This document shows positions 701-21,366 of a DNA stretch of 36,480 nucleotides, piece by piece. Source of the DNA: Phycisphaerales bacterium (GTDB taxonomy: Bacteria > Planctomycetota > Phycisphaerae > WQYP01); assembly GCA_027451365.1 (NCBI GenBank), contig DAIDJN010000037.1, positions 1-36,480 on the forward strand, written 5' to 3'. A program made the translations under genes and the position numbers. The notes under the pieces are model-generated. The model made no database searches. It saw only the letters and a list, made by a program, of their open reading frames with translations, and was not told where the DNA came from. The number at the start of each line of letters is the position of its first letter. Position 1 is the first letter of the stretch.

Positions 701-1855
701 CTAGCCCTCGCAAGCAGTAATTGTAAATCCGCCGCCAACAGATATGCCAGTGCCCTGCCCGACCCCCATCCCCGCCTCAATGCGCGGCCGCAGGCCGGGC
801 GAACCGAGGCAGCCACGTACCCCGAACGTCCAGGACCAAAATCCGACAGACGCTGTCGCACAGACCTCGCCTTGGATTCCCTCATTGGGGCACCCCCATT
901 CGAGCCCATGCCGGAAGGGGACGCGGAGCCATTTTGCGGGCAAATGACGTTTTCTTATCTGCTGGAGACTTATGGGGGACCGCCAACTCGAGGGCGGTGG
1001 ATTCCAGCCGAACCGAATACTCCCCAGCTCGTAAATCCCTCCGCTAGCGGTTATATCCGCTATTGCGCAGATTTTTTTCCTACCATGTTCGCAACACCGT
1101 TTCACGTCAACGCTCCCGCAAACCGTTATTGCAACCACAGTGCTCGGAATGGGGCTAGGAAATATAAAGTTAAAGCAGGCCTTCGTCCCAAAGAATCCCA
1201 AATTCAGAATATCTCTCAGGTAGCCTAACATTGTACCCACAGCTCCCGTACCGGGCGCGTCGAGAGCTATGGCAGGCCGCCCCCCCAAATACTCATACAA
1301 ATTGATCCCGCCATCATATCCAATCGGATCACGTTGAATCCAGCGGCCAAGGACGGGGTTATAGATTCGATTGCGGACATAATAAAGCTGCGATTCCGGA
1401 TCAAATCGATAGCCGCAATAGATTATTTCATTGGCACCGTAATCGGACTGCGCATCATCATCGGTAAACCAAATGCCATCCGCACCCGGCGCGGTGAAAA
1501 TCAAGGTATTGCCGTAGGCATCGGTGTCATACGCCTCCACAACCTGCCCGCCAGAATTGGTCAGCGCCACCGCGCGGTACAGCAAATCCTGCAATAAATA
1601 ATACGCCCCGACAGGCACTGGTTGTGGCCCGGCGGCCACCAGCAGGTTCGACTGGATGCATTCGTCAATATATGTTTCCCAGATATATTGCCGAACCGGC
1701 GTATCCGTGCTGCCGCTGCCCCGGCGGCCGCAACTAACACTCTGTGCACTCGGTGATCTCTGTGGCTCGTCCGTTCCGCCGACCCCATACGCATATTGCC
1801 CGCCCGGCCACGGGGGACCAATCGCGTTTTCTATGCTATCCGCATTCATGACCAT
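701..1855 (-). CDS. Orphan (5'-truncated) Rhs repeat-associated core with variable C-terminal tip
   Basis: Rhs core motifs EAYDTDAYG, YCGYRFDPESQLYYVRNRIYNPVLGRWIQRDPIGYDGGINLYEY and PAIALDAPG (PxxxxDxxG boundary), followed by about 180 aa of unrelated sequence. The long YD-repeat region is absent and the start codon is uncertain. Confidence 0.88.
   Translation of the reverse strand: MVMNADSIENAIGPPWPGGQYAYGVGGTDEPQRSPSAQSVSCGRRGSGSTDTPVRQYIWETYIDECIQSNLLVAAGPQPVPVGAYYLLQDLLYRAVALTNSGGQVVEAYDTDAYGNTLIFTAPGADGIWFTDDDAQSDYGANEIIYCGYRFDPESQLYYVRNRIYNPVLGRWIQRDPIGYDGGINLYEYLGGRPAIALDAPGTGAVGTMLGYLRDILNLGFFGTKACFNFIFPSPIPSTVVAITVCGSVDVKRCCEHGRKKICAIADITASGGIYELGSIRFGWNPPPSSWRSPISLQQIRKRHLPAKWLRVPFRHGLEWGCPNEGIQGEVCATASVGFWSWTFGVRGCLGSPGLRPRIEAGMGVGQGTGISVGGGFTITACEG
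1740..1766 (+). repeat. Three tandem 9-mers (CTCTGTGCA CTCGGTGAT CTCTGTGGC)
   Basis: Read directly from the sequence; lies just 5' of where Rhs similarity begins. Confidence 0.6.
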
Positions 1856-2106: not shown

Positions 2107-2191
2107 TTTAAGTGACGCATCGCATCGCGTCTCCTAAAGTAAGGCGCGGCCGCCATTTTCTTAATTCCGTCCCGGGCGGCGGTCTCGTTAA
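2107..2191 (+). repeat. Degenerate copy of the GTCTCATTAA/hairpin array
   Basis: TTTAA-GTGACGCATCGCATCGC-GTCTCCTAAA-GTAAGGCGCGGCCGCC-ATTTTCTTAA-17 nt-GTCTCGTTAA aligns unit by unit with 19314-19398. Confidence 0.7.
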
Positions 2192-2445
2192 ACCGAAGCT
2201 TCGCCCCCCGCCACAGATTGCCACAGATTGGCCTCTGGAATTCCCCCGATATGCGCGGCGAAGCTTGCCCTCCTTATATCGCCGGGGGCGACCGATTACC
2301 GGTGATTGCTTTTACACAAAGCGTCGTAGAACGCCGAACGGCCAATTCCAGCCTGCCCTTACCCGCCGCAACTCTCGGCGCAAACCGGTCAAGGCGTTAA
2401 ACTGACCACCGACCAATGGTCGCGTTTTTTGGAGCATCTGGATTC

Positions 2446-16847: not shown

Positions 16848-18884
16848 TCAGTCGACCGCGTCCGGATAGGCGTCCAGAAATTCGCGCTCTCCAAGAATCG
16901 GAATTTTCAGTTTGCGGGCCTTTTCCAGTTTGCCGCCTGCTTCGGCACCGGCAATAACAAAAGCGGTCGATTTACTTACCGATTCCCCCGCTTTCCCACC
17001 CAGCTTTTCAATAAAACTCCGTATCTGGCTTCGTGTAAATTTTTCCAGAGTACCGGTCACCACGACAGTTTTTCCGCTTAAGGGCCCGTCCATAGCCTGC
17101 GTTGTCGCACGTGCCGCGTTGGTGTTTACTCCCAACCCCGCGAGTTCCTCCAGCAGAACCAGTCCGCCGAGATTATGGAGATAGTCGTAAAGCGATTGCC
17201 CCGCGACCTCGCCGACTCCTTCGGCCGTTTGGAAAGCATTAGGCGATGCGGCTCGCAACGCTTCAAGCGACGGAAAACAGGCGGCCACCAGTTCCGCAGT
17301 GCGGGTGCCGATGTGGCGAATTCCAAGTCCGCCGAGCAGCCGTTCAAGTCCGCGCGCTTTGCTTTTTTCAATACCCTGGAGCAGATTTTCCGCAGATTTC
17401 GCCCCCATGCGTTCCAGGGCCTCAAGCCGAGTCAACGAAAGGCGGTATAGGTCCGGAATACTCCTGACCAGTCCAGCTGTCATAAGTTGTTCAATAATCG
17501 CCGGGCCAAGGTTTTCAATATCCATCTGTCGGCGACCGCCAAAATATCGCAAGCGTTCCGCAAGCTGTGCCGGGCAAGCCGCATTCATGCAACGTACAAA
17601 ACCGCCCTCACGGACCGTTGCGGTCGCACAAGACGGGCATTGCTCGGGCGGCTTTATCGCCACGGCGTCGGCGGGCCGTTGGACCGGTGCCACCCCCACG
17701 ACATAAGGAATCACCTCGCCGGCCTTTTGGACCAGCACATAGTCGAACAGGTGAATATCTTTTCGCACAATTTCATCAAAATTATGCAGGCTTGCGCGGT
17801 ACACCTGAGTTCCGCTGATAAACACCGGCGGTTCAAATTCAGCGACCGGCGTAATGGTTCCGGTCTTGCCCACCTGGAATACCACACGCGCCAACCGGGT
17901 CGTAGCCTGTTCCGGTTGATATTTATATGCAATGCACCAGCGCGGCGCCCGTGACGTAGATCCCAATTCGCGCCGTTGGGCCAAGGAATCAACTTTTATC
18001 ACCACGCCGTCGGTATCGAACGGCAAATTGCGGCGAATGTCCGCAAATCGCGTCAGGAATTCCTGCACAGCCGCTATGTCGTCCACCATGGTGATGTGCG
18101 GTGCCAAAACAAATCCCAGATCAGAGAGATAATTCAGCCATATCCGATAGCCGACAAAATCAAACCCTTCCACTTGTCCTTGGCCATGTGGAAGAAACCG
18201 CAGCTTTCTGGCGGCCACCAAGCGTGAATCAAGTAGTTTCAAAGTTCCGGCCGCGGTATTCCGTGGATTGGCGTACAGCGCTTCGCCCATATCTTCCTGC
18301 TGCTGATTTATTAGCAGGAATTGATCACGTGTCAGAAACGCTTCACCCCGAATTTCCAGAATTTCAGGAATGACCGCCGGATACCCTGCTGTCGGCACCG
18401 GCTCCTGAAGTTTCAGTGGTATGTTGCGGATCGTGCGGGCATTAACGGTTACATCATCGCCCACCGCACCATCGCCGCGGGTGGCCGCCTGAACCAGGAA
18501 TCCATTTTCATAGCGCAGCGAAAGGGACACACCGTCAATTTTTGGTTCGCAAACATATGAAACCAGTGCATCACCGAGCAGTTTTCGCACGCGGGCGTCA
18601 AATGCGACAACCTCCCCTGTGGTATAGGTGTTGTCAATGGAAATCATGGGAACGGCATGACGAGCCTGGGCGAATTCTTCAATCGGTGCTCCACCGACCT
18701 TTTGCGTCGGAGAATCCAGTGCGGCAAACTCAGGATGCGCCGTCTCCAAAGCTCGCAATCGTTTAAACAAGTCATCATATTGCTGGTCGGTTAATTCCGG
18801 CTTGGCCAACTGGTAATACAGCCGATCATGATGGCGAATTTGATCGCGCAGTTCTTGAATCTGATTCTTTATGGCGTCTTGCAT
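16848..18884 (-). CDS. ligA: NAD-dependent DNA ligase
   Basis: Adenylation motif EPKIDG, ATRGDG, NPRNTAAG, DGVVIKV, Zn finger (CPSC...C...C), HhH and C-terminal BRCT (VVTGTL...GGK). Start placed at MQDAIK. Confidence 0.98.
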   Translation of the reverse strand: MQDAIKNQIQELRDQIRHHDRLYYQLAKPELTDQQYDDLFKRLRALETAHPEFAALDSPTQKVGGAPIEEFAQARHAVPMISIDNTYTTGEVVAFDARVRKLLGDALVSYVCEPKIDGVSLSLRYENGFLVQAATRGDGAVGDDVTVNARTIRNIPLKLQEPVPTAGYPAVIPEILEIRGEAFLTRDQFLLINQQQEDMGEALYANPRNTAAGTLKLLDSRLVAARKLRFLPHGQGQVEGFDFVGYRIWLNYLSDLGFVLAPHITMVDDIAAVQEFLTRFADIRRNLPFDTDGVVIKVDSLAQRRELGSTSRAPRWCIAYKYQPEQATTRLARVVFQVGKTGTITPVAEFEPPVFISGTQVYRASLHNFDEIVRKDIHLFDYVLVQKAGEVIPYVVGVAPVQRPADAVAIKPPEQCPSCATATVREGGFVRCMNAACPAQLAERLRYFGGRRQMDIENLGPAIIEQLMTAGLVRSIPDLYRLSLTRLEALERMGAKSAENLLQGIEKSKARGLERLLGGLGIRHIGTRTAELVAACFPSLEALRAASPNAFQTAEGVGEVAGQSLYDYLHNLGGLVLLEELAGLGVNTNAARATTQAMDGPLSGKTVVVTGTLEKFTRSQIRSFIEKLGGKAGESVSKSTAFVIAGAEAGGKLEKARKLKIPILGEREFLDAYPDAVD

Positions 18885-18949
18885 GAGGACGTTATAACCT
18901 GACCAGAGAACCCTTATCAACACAACCAGCCGCCCCCGACCGGATGGCC

Positions 18950-19060
18950 CATTGAGCAAGGAGGCGAAATCTCCCGACCGATGGTATCGGGACAGGAGCC
19001 GCCCATCGGGATTAAGGTGGCGCAGCCACCGTCCGCAAGGAAGAAAAAGAAGCGCAGCGC
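18950..19060 (+). repeat. Hairpin cluster, directly repeated at 20280-20372
   Basis: CATTGAGC(A/C)AGGAGGCGAAATC and CAGGAGCCGC(C/A)CATCGGGATT are shared with 20280-20331. Also includes GGTGGC-GCA-GCCACC and GAAGCGCAGCGC. Confidence 0.85.
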
Positions 19061-19070
19061 CCCCAAATTC

Positions 19071-19102
19071 TTCTAACTCCTAACTTCTAACTCCTAACTC
19101 CT
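19071..19102 (+). repeat. Heptamer tandem repeat (TYCTAAC) x4.5
   Basis: TTCTAAC TCCTAAC TTCTAAC TCCTAAC TCCT. Confidence 0.9.
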
Positions 19103-19105
19103 GTG

Positions 19106-19228
19106 TTTTAAGCGATGCGCCGCATCGCGTCTCATTAAGGTGGCGCAGCCACCGTCTCATTAAGTGAGGCCGGGGCCGAACGTCTCATTAAAGCCGCCGC
19201 AGGCGGCTGTCTCATTGAAGCGCAGCGC
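19106..19228 (+). repeat. GTCTCATTRA/variable-hairpin array, block 1
   Basis: Constant 10-mer at 19129, 19154, 19182 and 19209, each preceded by a palindrome; ends with AGCGCAGCGC. Confidence 0.92.
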
Positions 19229-19262
19229 CGCTCCCATGCCAAATACCAACCTCAACCTGGGG

Positions 19263-19281
19263 GGCGGGCGTCTCGCCCGCC
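19263..19281 (+). repeat. REP-like palindrome GGCGGGCG-TCT-CGCCCGCC
   Basis: Perfect 8-bp stem between the two array blocks. Confidence 0.65.
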
Positions 19282-19313
19282 AAATACTAAATATTAACTC
19301 GTGCTTCCTGCGC

Positions 19314-19433
19314 TTTTAAGCGATGCACCGCATCGCGTCTCATTAAGGTGGCGCTGCCACCGTCTCATTAAAGCCGCCGCAGCCGGCTGTCTCATTAATC
19401 CCGGCGCACCGGGAGTCTCATTGAGCGCAGCGC
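19314..19433 (+). repeat. GTCTCATTRA/variable-hairpin array, block 2
   Basis: Constant 10-mer at 19337, 19362, 19389 and 19415, each preceded by a palindrome; ends with GCGCAGCGC. Confidence 0.92.
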
Positions 19434-19436
19434 ACC

Positions 19437-19464
19437 TTGAACTTCCGCCTTGGCCTGTTATACT
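19437..19464 (+). promoter_or_regulatory. Sigma70-type promoter of the TA operon, probably leaderless
   Basis: TTGAAC-16 nt-TATACT with extended -10 TG; the ATG follows 6 nt after the -10. Confidence 0.65.
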
Positions 19465-19470
19465 AAAGGT

Positions 19471-19716
19471 ATGAAAACTGCAATCTCCATTCCTGATGAC
19501 ATTTATGCCAGGGCGGCACGGTTTGCCGCACGAACAAACAAAACGCGCAGTCGGCTTTTTACTGATGCCGTGCGGGAATACCTGGCCCACCACGCACCCG
19601 ATGAAATAACCAGGGCAATGAACGCGGCCTGCCGCGATGTGAAAGATTCAAATGATTCAAAGGATCCATTTGTCACTTCCGCCTCACGTCGCATGCTGGA
19701 GCGTCAGGAATGGTAA
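19471..19716 (+). CDS. Ribbon-helix-helix (CopG-like) antitoxin
   Basis: MKTAISIPDDIY...TRSRLFTDAVREYL RHH pattern; overlaps the toxin start. Confidence 0.88.
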   Translation: MKTAISIPDDIYARAARFAARTNKTRSRLFTDAVREYLAHHAPDEITRAMNAACRDVKDSNDSKDPFVTSASRRMLERQEW

Positions 19717-20054
19717 TTTCCCAAGGCGAAATATGGTGGGCCGAACTTGATGAACCAAAAGGCTCAAGCCCCGGCTTCCGGCGGCCCGTGGTGGTGGTAC
19801 AATCCGACGCCCTGAACATGAGCGACATTGGGACAGTCGTCTGCGTCCCGCTGACCAGCAATCTCAAATGGGCGTCCGCCCCGGGCAACGTCCCGCTTTC
19901 AGCGCGCCAGACTTCACTTCCGAAAGATTCCGTTGCGAACGTATCGCAGATTATCACGATAGATAAACAGATGTTAACCGTTCGGGCAGGCAAACTGACG
20001 CGTTCACGCCTGGAATCGATTCTGATCGGTATCGACATTATTTTGGGTAAATAG
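19710..20054 (+). CDS. mazF: PemK/MazF-family endoribonuclease toxin
   Basis: QGEIWWAEL, PGFRRPVVVVQSD, VPLTSN, DSVANVSQIITIDK. Confidence 0.93.
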   Translation: MVISQGEIWWAELDEPKGSSPGFRRPVVVVQSDALNMSDIGTVVCVPLTSNLKWASAPGNVPLSARQTSLPKDSVANVSQIITIDKQMLTVRAGKLTRSRLESILIGIDIILGK

Positions 20055-20222
20055 CCGCCTGTCGTCCGGCGGTAATTAACCGGCGACCCGCTCGTAACCC
20101 GGCCGCCGTTCCGAAATCCAAAATCCCCAAATTTCAAATCCCCCATTCCAAGGTCACCAAAGTAATCGCGCCGCAGCCGCAGGCTGCATGAAATCACAAG
20201 CTGCGGCGCAGCTTACCTCCGC

Positions 20223-20250
20223 TACTCATTACTCGTTATTCATTATTCAT
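20223..20250 (+). repeat. Heptamer tandem repeat (TAYTCRT) x4
   Basis: TACTCAT TACTCGT TATTCAT TATTCAT. Confidence 0.85.
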
Positions 20251-20372
20251 TGAGCGCAGCGCCGCCCCGAATCGCGTCTCATTGAGCCAGGAGGCGAAAT
20301 CCCGGTGCGGCAGGAGCCGCACATCGGGATTGAATCGCGGCGCTGCCACCCATCGGGATTGAAGCGCAGCGC
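20247..20372 (+). repeat. Hairpin cluster between mazF and the HNH gene
   Basis: TCATTGAGCGCAGCGC (same as the block 2 end), ATCGC-GTCTCATTGA at 20271-20285, two CATCGGGATTGA, terminal GAAGCGCAGCGC. Confidence 0.85.
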
Positions 20373-20448
20373 TGCGGCGGCCGTCTCTTCTCGCATTATT
20401 AATAACGCGGTACAATGCTCATATTATCGTAAATGGAGCCGTTAACAC

Positions 20449-21366
20449 TTGCCAAAGCGCCCGCCAATTCCCGCTGATGTGAAACGATCCGTGAGGAAAC
20501 GGTGCGGCTACGGTTGCATCATTTGCGGCAAGCCAATCTACGAGTACCACCATATAGAGGGATTCGTTGAAAAGATCGGGCACGTAGAATCCGAAATCAC
20601 AATCCTATGCGACACCTGCCATCGTAAAACAACGAACGGCATTTTTTCTCGCGACGCAATAGTCGCCGCTGACACAAACCCATTCAATCGGAGGCGCAGC
20701 ACCCCCGATGTCGTCTGGATGCATTACGGTGGAAACTGTCAGGTCGTGCTCGGAAACAATGTCGTCGAATTTGCCGAAATGCCCAGCGCGGCTGCCCTAG
20801 TAATGGACGGCAACCCTATCTGTTTCATGGAAAAAGAGGACGATTATTGGCTCTTAAGTCTTAAAATCTACGACGAGCATGACCGGCCGCTGCTCGCGGT
20901 CAGCAGCAACGAGCTAATTTACCGAACAAGCGATGTCGAAGACGTATGCTACCAAGGGGGAGTACTCACAATACGTCGCAATGGAAGAATTTGCTTCCGC
21001 GCAGGATTCAAGCCACCGGCATTGAGGATCATGGAGGCCGAGACGTGGTGGAATGGCATCCATCTAAATTTAACTGCCGACGGCCTCTTAATAAATCAGC
21101 GACCAGCCTTGGATAACTGCAAAGCTGTTAATTGCAGCGTGGCATTTATCGTTGGCAGGGATCCTTTCGCTTGGGGGTGCGGCGCAAGGCTCGGAGCGCC
21201 TACCCGCCTAATTTATCTATTGGGTAACGACGAGCTGTCGCCCTTCCCCGAGGACCTAATACCAATCAAGCCGTGGGAGTCAGCAGGCGAGCTATTCGAC
21301 CGACCGGCGCACACCGCAGCGTGCGCTCAGCAAGGCTTCACCTTCTTCATTTCACTCCCATTTTAG
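20449..21366 (+). CDS. HNH endonuclease with uncharacterised C-terminal beta-rich domain
   Basis: RPPIPADVKRSV...CIICG...EYHHI...H...ITILCDTCH (Zn-binding HNH). TTG start with GGAG upstream and TACAAT at 20411-20416. Confidence 0.8.
   Translation: MPKRPPIPADVKRSVRKRCGYGCIICGKPIYEYHHIEGFVEKIGHVESEITILCDTCHRKTTNGIFSRDAIVAADTNPFNRRRSTPDVVWMHYGGNCQVVLGNNVVEFAEMPSAAALVMDGNPICFMEKEDDYWLLSLKIYDEHDRPLLAVSSNELIYRTSDVEDVCYQGGVLTIRRNGRICFRAGFKPPALRIMEAETWWNGIHLNLTADGLLINQRPALDNCKAVNCSVAFIVGRDPFAWGCGARLGAPTRLIYLLGNDELSPFPEDLIPIKPWESAGELFDRPAHTAACAQQGFTFFISLPF

What the first reader, a model, noticed from the sequence alone, without database searches (positions are those of the whole stretch)
19106..19433. 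Array of a constant 10-mer (GTCTCATTRA) alternating with interchangeable DNA hairpins
Seen: two blocks share one grammar, TTTTAA-[hairpin-GTCTCATTAA]x3-[hairpin-GTCTCATTGA]-(A)GCGCAGCGC. Block 1 hairpins: A GCGATGC-GCC-GCATCGC, B GGTGGC-GCA-GCCACC, C GT-GA-GGC-CGGG-GCC-GA-AC, D AGCCGCC-GCA-GGCGGCT. Block 2: A' (loop ACC), B' (loop GCT), D' (one stem mismatch), E TCCCGG-CGCA-CCGGGA. The order is A-B-C-D versus A-B-D-E, so whole units differ precisely at the 10-mer. The A and B differences fall in loops while the stems are kept. This inverts CRISPR logic: the repeat is unstructured and the 15-18 nt 'spacers' are the palindromes. Inference: an enzyme-maintained modular element or structured ncRNA. 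TTRA at each hairpin foot resembles the tetranucleotide at the foot of REP (GTAG) and IS200/IS605 hairpins used by HUH Y1 transposases. I do not recognise this as a named family.
Basis: partly seen in the sequence, partly recalled or inferred. Interest (0 to 1): 0.85.

Follow-up and report, generated by a model that had tools for sequence, protein, structure and literature searches.

The report
Modular hairpin-and-linker repeat of Phycisphaerae
The chain of small, swappable DNA hairpins joined by a fixed 10-base linker is real: it is one arm of an uncatalogued, two-armed repeat scattered between genes in one family of uncultured planctomycete bacteria, and it behaves like known palindromic repeat mosaics, not like a CRISPR-type memory.

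Summary
The array is not local. Related arms occur at 9 clusters of this genome and in 8 of 45 genomes of its order, but in 0 of 356 other class members.

Relatives show that the window holds single arms of a larger element: two inverted arms around an AT-rich core of 31-33 bp. About 31 hairpin types occur. Stems covary, GNA triloops sit only on the linker strand (28 of 52 versus 0), and two units are swapped at one orthologous site.

No Y1, GIY-YIG, four-helix-bundle or GxxExxY gene examined is flanked by the array. The linker runs into CTCATTA-type heptamer repeats. In one relative the array rides inside an element whose ends also bracket a Y1 transposase gene. Several copies sit at junctions of toxin-antitoxin, pilin and polysaccharide genes.

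Best reading: a DNA-level, BIME-like mosaic, reshuffled at its 10-bp direct repeats and spread as a passenger. The scan met this architecture before on other DNA (Gut-1-type arrays) but not this sequence. No dedicated enzyme was found.

The parts
19106..19228 (+). Arm 1: TTTTAA, hairpins A (19112-19128), B (19139-19153), C (19164-19181), D (19192-19208), each followed by the 10-bp linker, then the GCGCAGCGC end
19314..19433 (+). Arm 2: TTTTAA, hairpins A' (19320-19336), B' (19347-19361), D' (19372-19388), E (19399-19414), linkers, GCGCAGCGC end
19264..19280 (+). Separate REP-type hairpin between the arms; a related hairpin flanks a Y1 gene in a relative (L229)
18950..19033 (+). Degenerate arm piece: long branched unit, TTAA, hairpin B, broken linker
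19040..19105 (+). GCGCAGCGC mini-hairpin and CTAACTC-type heptamer run; a like module lies upstream of a four-helix-bundle gene on contig C59
19437..19464 (+). Promoter-like site directly after arm 2, 6 bases before the ATG of the probable antitoxin (leaderless start inferred)
19471..19716 (+). Probable antitoxin (weak RelB-like match, below cut-off); neighbour, not part of the repeat
19710..20054 (+). PemK/MazF-type toxin; neighbour
20227..20380 (+). Degenerate arm cluster: CTCATTA/TTCATTA heptamers, GCGCAGCGC, one exact linker (20276), long branched unit
20449..21366 (+). HNH-like gene following the degenerate cluster (Pfam match just below cut-off); neighbour
2107..2194 (+). Decayed arm upstream of queC
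16848..18884 (-). ligA, divergent neighbour; the DNA upstream of ligA holds no array in 4 of 4 relatives with a match

Best explanation
A lineage-specific, non-coding DNA mosaic repeat of the BIME kind. SHOWN: the full element is left arm (inverted) + AT-rich core + right arm; an arm is TTAA, an A-type hairpin, then further hairpins each followed by the linker, often a heptamer tail and a GCGNAGCG end; the window holds single arms. SHOWN: stems are kept by compensatory change and stable-loop motifs lie on the linker strand only; arrays differ by whole units; one hairpin type (E) is also a free high-copy palindrome that invades genes, other repeats and array units. INFERRED: the linker is a unit of the CTCATTA heptamer family, whose inverted runs also bracket a four-helix-bundle gene in two relatives. 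INFERRED: units are lost, doubled and sometimes reordered by slippage or recombination between the 10-bp direct repeats, and new hairpins enter by replacement from roaming palindromes. INFERRED: arms spread as passengers, by recombination among repeat clusters and, in G058, inside a gene-less inverted-repeat element probably moved by a Y1 transposase. INFERRED: the hairpins act in single-stranded DNA, bound by a hairpin-reading protein not yet identified, and the clusters serve as exchange points for toxin-antitoxin, pilin and polysaccharide genes.
For: Dispersal: 9 own-genome clusters with array units (31 hits in 15 clusters, 0 in the reversed genome); 8 of 45 genomes of the order, 0 of 356 others; 42 matches in G058. 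Units: 79% of 112 have at least 70% paired stems against 6.6% in shuffles; 12 cells with double change, 0 of 500 shuffles as high. Two-armed form: 6 cores of 31-33 bp; nearly the same element at two loci, L300 and L318. Strand bias: GNA triloops 28 of 52 against 0; GA/GA tandem mismatches 5 units against 0. Order swap upstream of orthologous genes 93% identical. Hairpin E: 100 copies in G057, 48 in G003, which has no exact array. Heptamer tail on 31 of 65 arrays; another heptamer run nearby in 18 of 65 against 4 of 627 control gaps; the same heptamers bracket a four-helix-bundle gene. Outer inverted repeats around 7 G058 copies, a copy of that frame without the array (L588), and the same repeats around a Y1 gene. 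Toxin-antitoxin pairs between arms in L309, L315, L318.
Against: No enzyme is tied to the array: 0 of 15 Y1 loci, 0 of 20 four-helix-bundle loci, 0 of 9 GxxExxY loci and 0 of 9 small GIY-YIG loci of relatives are flanked by it. These families occur in 37-41 of 45 genomes, so they do not track the 8 carriers. The outer inverted repeat has 0 exact copies in this genome, so that route does not explain the window. No consistent target duplication. The 15 G058 loci scanned have mostly housekeeping neighbours, so the toxin-antitoxin link is not general, and it was not tested against a matched background. Units are related by descent, which inflates the covariation and loop counts; the heptamer control came from this genome only. 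Linker invariance across three genera is more than drift and slippage alone easily explain.
Confidence: 0.55

Rival explanations
1. Enzyme-maintained cassette array: a site-specific single-strand DNA enzyme cuts at TTRA, inserts or excises hairpin+GTCTCA units, and collects hairpins from other repeat families; the arms also act as integration sites for small gene cassettes.
For: Units end exactly at the linker; 3 type pairs occur in both orders, one at an orthologous site; the free palindrome E appears as a clean unit; strand-biased loops; arms separate tandem toxin-antitoxin pairs; core length is nearly fixed.
Against: No candidate gene beside any array; order is mostly fixed and fits deletion from longer arms; A-type and D-type hairpins were found almost only in arrays; E invades many other sites too.
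Confidence: 0.15
2. Structured non-coding RNA or mRNA element of the Gut-1 type: a row of stem-loops that binds a protein or protects transcripts.
For: Same architecture as Gut-1, short stems joined by a constant linker; G-T pairs 10 against A-C 5 on the linker strand; RNA fold z -2.5.
Against: No Rfam match near a gathering score; GNRA loops 3 of 29, UUCG 0; no orientation bias to neighbouring genes, 14 against 22 and 17 against 19; both strands fold about equally as RNA; in the two-armed form the favoured loops lie on opposite strands.
Confidence: 0.12
3. Concatemer of 5' halves of CGTC/SRM repeats, the targets of Ssn GIY-YIG single-strand nucleases.
For: The linker reads H-GTC-T-C in 147 of 149 cases, matching the start of the SRM pattern (PMC11893778). 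The end unit has the same spacing, GTC + 5 bases + GAGCGNAGCG, as the repeats flanking an Ssn-like gene in G011.
Against: The SRM pattern does not match the region and is not enriched in the genome, 17 against 29 in the control; the base before GTC is set by the hairpin; no closed form found; the only GIY-YIG hit in this genome lies in a 598-aa frame.
Confidence: 0.1
4. Spacerless CRISPR-repeat mimics processed by the type I-G Cas6-like protein.
For: A CRISPR-like repeat of this genome is a hairpin followed by ...ATTGAAGC, as at the end of arm 1; Csb2 (PF09609) is present.
Against: Rfam CRISPR match E 3.2, far below cut-off; 4 of 8 carriers, among them the two richest, had no PF09609 hit (69-88% complete); 0 of 53 viral loci hold a hairpin array; 4 against 5 bases between stem and handle.
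Confidence: 0.03
5. Local duplication with no wider family.
For: Arms 1 and 2 share A, B, D and could stem from one A-B-C-D-E ancestor.
Against: Copies on four other contigs and in three genera, with different hairpins.
Confidence: 0.02

Closest known systems
REP / BIME / REPIN elements and TIR elements of Y1 transposases (PMC3733652, PMC6006769, PMC3337134; passages read, and section 16 of the first)
   Same: Short extragenic palindromes, clusters and inverted doublets, patchy high-copy spread, nesting with other repeats; one relative carries the array inside an inverted-repeat frame that also brackets a Y1 gene.
   Different: No GTAG/GTGG or CnGA foot; many unrelated hairpins joined head to tail by one constant non-palindromic linker; no transposase gene flanked by the array.
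Gut-1 motif (Rfam RF01706; PMC2864571; passages and part of the supplementary alignment seen)
   Same: Row of short variable stems joined by a constant linker; function unknown.
   Different: Different linker, no covariance-model match, different phylum; loops here favour DNA.
Neisserial NIME arrays, dRS3/NTS repeats and Ssn nucleases (PMC1797815 passages; PMC11893778 passages and section 7)
   Same: Constant element alternating with variable parts, arrays dynamic at syntenic sites, found beside surface genes; HGTC-like start of the linker.
   Different: In NIMEs the constant part is the palindrome; the SRM pattern is not matched; no Ssn gene beside the array.
Heptamer-flanked four-helix-bundle (PF05635) units and ORF-bearing 23S intervening sequences (PMC4990558, passages)
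   Same: Inverted heptamer arms; the CTCATTA family brackets such a gene in G059 and G055.
   Different: No gene in the loop; GC-rich hairpins are threaded between the linkers; not in rRNA.

Membership tests
REP/BIME/REPIN | Multi-copy short palindromes, mostly between genes | tested here: met
   9 own clusters; 5 of 64 arrays wholly inside an ORF of 150 aa or more
REP/BIME/REPIN | GTAG/GTGG (class 3: CnGA) 0-2 bases 5' of the stem | tested here: not met
   Foot is TTAA on the linker strand and AGAC on the other
REP/BIME/REPIN | Inverted doublets at conserved spacing | tested here: met
   6 cores of 31-33 bp; longer cores also seen; most copies are single arms
REP/BIME/REPIN | Cognate Y1 transposase gene flanked by the repeat | tested here: not met
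   None found in this genome; 0 of 15 Y1 loci examined, of 29
REP/BIME/REPIN | Cleavage by TnpA-REP | not testable with these tools
   needs biochemistry
CGTC repeats / SRM-Ssn | Match to the published SRM pattern | tested here: not met
   0 matches at 18900-20450; genome 17 against 29 control
CGTC repeats / SRM-Ssn | HGTC tag at the foot of the stem | tested here: inconclusive
   HGTC in 147 of 149, but 7 bases from the next stem
CGTC repeats / SRM-Ssn | Small GIY-YIG gene flanked by the repeat | tested here: not met
   0 of 9 loci
Gut-1 (RF01706) | Covariance-model match | tested here: not met
Gut-1 (RF01706) | Variable short stems joined by a constant linker | tested here: met
CRISPR array | Constant repeat with unique spacers of about 25-45 bases | tested here: not met
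   Variable parts are 7-27 bases, palindromic and recurrent
CRISPR array | Linkage to cas genes | tested here: not met
   No cas gene among the 29 window ORFs scanned; Cas3 beside 1 of 40 relative loci; CRISPR-like repeats near L287
MITE / TIR element | Terminal inverted repeats | tested here: inconclusive
   Present around 7 G058 copies as an outer frame; 0 exact copies in this genome
MITE / TIR element | Target-site duplication | tested here: not met
   No consistent duplication beside the G058 frames
Heptamer / four-helix-bundle unit | Inverted heptamer arms | tested here: met
   Tail on 31 of 65 arrays; left-arm heptamers in 7 of 7 framed G058 copies; in the window only at 20227-20250
Heptamer / four-helix-bundle unit | PF05635 gene between the arms | tested here: not met
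   0 of 20 loci of relatives carry the array

The most novel reading that the evidence does not exclude
The element is a single-stranded-DNA cassette platform: an unidentified enzyme adds, removes and reorders hairpin units at the TTRA junction, collecting hairpins of other repeat families, and the arms with their 31-bp core serve as integration sites that stack toxin-antitoxin, pilin and polysaccharide gene cassettes without an integron integrase.
Probability: 0.13. Interest if true: 0.85.

Novelty: new variant of a known kind. Interest (0 to 1): 0.45.

Why it matters
As an ordinary repeat, it is a well-resolved case that joins three unexplained repeat classes in one element: heptamer runs, mini-hairpins and inverted-repeat frames of Y1 transposases. 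It gives a second, unrelated family with Gut-1 architecture and evidence that such rows work as DNA. It also shows how a free palindrome becomes a fixed unit. If an enzyme does act at the linker, it would be a new route for shuffling DNA modules and stacking defence and surface genes. The unit swap at one orthologous site makes that directly testable.

Tried and rejected
Rfam: nothing near a gathering score in the window region or in 6 related loci.
Enzyme co-occurrence across 45 genomes: Y1 41, GxxExxY 37, GIY-YIG 40, four-helix bundle 39, Csb2 19; none tracks the 8 carriers.
Viruses: 53 pattern matches, 0 with GC-rich hairpin spacers.
Of 85 hits for the end motif, I saw the grammar outside the family only in two Hymenobacter records.
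Closed SRM-like form: 0 hits.
tRNA origin of the linker: suggested by hairpin E inside tRNA-Asn-like copies beside small GIY-YIG genes; rejected because E invades many sites.
Cis-regulatory role: no orientation bias.
Sequencing runs: no RNA holder listed. The four runs laid were contigs that sum many organisms and none spans the array, so unit gain or loss in one strain could not be read.
A dif-like role for the core was considered from memory only and not tested.
A fuzzy genome scan timed out and was replaced by BLAST.
Literature: ten searches listed no paper describing this element. The library lacks most subscription papers; the text on Gut-1 in supplementary file 1 of PMC2864571 and the figures of PMC3733652 were not seen.

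Full report
1. Observation. Both blocks are present as described. The linker occurs 12 times in the window at up to one mismatch, against 2.99 expected; 12 of the genome's 16 exact copies belong to this family. The array lies between ligA and a probable antitoxin plus a PemK/MazF toxin, followed by a decayed cluster and an HNH-like gene. The hairpin between the two blocks belongs to another, REP-type family.

2. Spread. BLAST with the window's units gave 31 hits in 15 clusters and none in the reversed genome; 9 clusters hold array hairpins. The exact pattern linker-spacer-linker occurs in 8 of 45 genomes of the order, in three genera, and in 0 of 356 other genomes of the class. The congener G001 has no match, and the DNA upstream of ligA lacks the array in 4 of 4 relatives with a ligA match. 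In the genome collection, 18 of 20 loci titled Planctomycetota or Phycisphaerae have hairpin spacers against 6 of 99 others. In metagenomes 19 of 95 loci hold GC-rich hairpin arrays, some from the same contig; in viruses 0 of 53. G058 has 42 matches in 1.5 Mb, and the hisS loci of 7 congeners hold no linker where G058 has an array.

3. Units. Of 112 units (84 distinct; own-genome hits outside five contigs were dropped), 79% have at least 70% paired stems against 6.6% in shuffles. In 66 arrays of 2-5 units the hairpins fall into 31 clusters; an A-type hairpin usually comes first and order is mostly fixed, with 3 type pairs in both orders. One swap lies upstream of orthologous glycosyltransferase genes, 93% identical. 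For the A type, 12 cells change on both sides and 0 of 500 shuffles reach that value; kinship inflates this. GNA triloops lie on the linker strand in 28 of 52 triloop units and on the other strand in none; GA/GA tandem mismatches show the same bias, 5 against 0, while GNRA tetraloops are 3 of 29. That C-GNA-G loops are especially stable in DNA is recalled knowledge; my search for it listed no fitting paper.

4. Full anatomy. In L196, L300, L318, L309 and L315 two arms point away from an AT-rich core of 31-33 bp (6 distinct cores); L193, L212 and L213 have longer cores. Linkers of opposite arms pair in predicted folds (z -15 as DNA), which inverted repeats do by construction. L300 and L318 carry nearly the same element in different surroundings. 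The window and most other copies are single arms. The last linker runs into CTCATTA/TTCATTR heptamers in 31 of 65 arrays, and another heptamer run lies within 150 bp in 18 of 65 against 4 of 627 control gaps of this genome. The same heptamers bracket a four-helix-bundle gene in G059 and G055. A two-unit version sits beside an inverted heptamer run in two Hymenobacter records. I infer that the linker is a heptamer unit between which hairpins were threaded.

5. Source of hairpins. Hairpin E is a free palindrome: 100 copies in G057 and 48 in G003, which has no exact array. It interrupts a transposase-like gene, a Y1 gene, tRNA-Asn-like copies, other hairpin repeats and other array units. A-type and D-type hairpins were found almost only in arrays. 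So replacement by a roaming palindrome is shown for one type; general capture is not.

6. Mobility. In G058, 7 of the array loci examined lie inside frames of 285-443 bp bounded by a 12-bp inverted repeat; 6 more showed only the right repeat, several near contig ends; L588 is the same frame without the array; no consistent target duplication was seen. That repeat has 214 copies in G058 and 167 in G019 and brackets a Y1 gene in G057, 1 of 15 Y1 loci examined, as in the TIR elements of PMC3733652 (section 16). I infer hitch-hiking. The frame is missing from this genome, as is any Y1 hit, so the window's arms spread otherwise or earlier.

7. Neighbours. They are mixed: toxin-antitoxin pairs, restriction genes, prepilin-type genes, glycosyltransferases, and in G058 mostly housekeeping genes. 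In L309, L315 and L318 arms separate successive toxin-antitoxin pairs in polysaccharide clusters, mixed with other repeats. In the window a promoter-like site follows the arm directly. Arms show no orientation bias to flanking genes. No array flanks any of 15 Y1, 20 four-helix-bundle, 9 GxxExxY or 9 small GIY-YIG loci of relatives, and none of these families tracks the carriers.

8. Mechanism. Most likely (0.55) a DNA-level mosaic: direct 10-bp linkers allow unit loss, doubling and occasional reordering; hairpins are kept because they act in single-stranded DNA on one strand per arm, or are renewed by copying from the opposite stem arm; roaming palindromes replace units; arms travel inside larger repeats. 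Rivals are an enzyme-kept cassette array (0.15), a Gut-1-like RNA (0.12), concatenated SRM halves (0.10), CRISPR mimics (0.03) and local duplication (0.02).

9. Known families. It works like BIME/REPIN and NIME mosaics (passages of PMC6006769, PMC3337134, PMC1797815) and shares the build of Gut-1, but fails the membership tests for REP (foot, cognate transposase), SRM (pattern, gene), Gut-1 (model) and CRISPR. Ten literature searches listed no description of it. Earlier notes of this scan report the same build in gut bacteria and heptamer-flanked four-helix-bundle units in many genomes; they gave leads and are not support. A look-up by this sequence found nothing.

10. Verdict. Real, uncatalogued, a new variant of a known kind; interest 0.45. 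The bold reading, an enzyme-run hairpin and gene-cassette platform, stays open at about 0.13.

Noticed in passing
L249, L228, L223, L447-L450 (G057, G056, G050); G003: The 16-bp palindrome E is a free element of up to 100 copies that lands in transposase genes (in frame in a Y1 gene), in other hairpin repeats and in tRNA-like copies, often where half of it already resembles the site.
   Followed up: partly
L017, L447, L448, L449, L450: Small GIY-YIG genes follow an intact tRNA-Asn-like gene and end in a copy of its 5' part that carries palindrome E; tandem partial tRNA copies lie upstream.
   Followed up: partly
G058 and G019 genome-wide; L228:885-1979: A 12-bp inverted repeat with 214 and 167 copies forms pairs around varied interiors and brackets a Y1 gene in G057: a probable TIR-element family.
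   Followed up: partly
L193, L212, L213 (G056, G059): Arms lie in or next to the 5' ends of prepilin-type genes and can be read in frame as leader extensions.
   Followed up: no
L309, L315, L318, L576: Runs of toxin-antitoxin pairs (PIN, DUF433/DUF5615, nucleotidyltransferase-HepT, Gp49/HI1420) inside polysaccharide clusters, several with a like -10 box 6-7 bases before the ATG.
   Followed up: partly
G000 C29:139-711, C42:78961-79821, C41:63416-63556: CRISPR-like arrays; the C42 array abuts a tandem run of REP-type hairpins, and single repeat-like units sit inside a REP cluster on C41.
   Followed up: no
window 18950-19076 and 20187-20408: Summed contig depth in four mine-drainage or sediment runs is far above that of ligA (about 35,000 against 60 in one run), so these modules are high-copy in such communities.
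   Followed up: no
window 19355: Most contigs laid read A here, restoring the GCA loop of hairpin B.
   Followed up: no
window 19644-19651: A 9-base repeat in the probable antitoxin gene varies in copy number among contigs.
   Followed up: no
L452 (G011): Small GIY-YIG gene flanked by inverted TGTC-tagged repeats, a likely Ssn unit.
   Followed up: partly
L501, L541: Two Hymenobacter records show the same linker with GCGNAGC mini-hairpins beside an inverted heptamer run.
   Followed up: partly
window 701-1855: ORF with an RHS core match, next to the decayed arm at 2107.
   Followed up: no
G001: The congener without arrays also gave no hit for four-helix-bundle, GxxExxY or Y1 genes (93% complete).
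   Followed up: no
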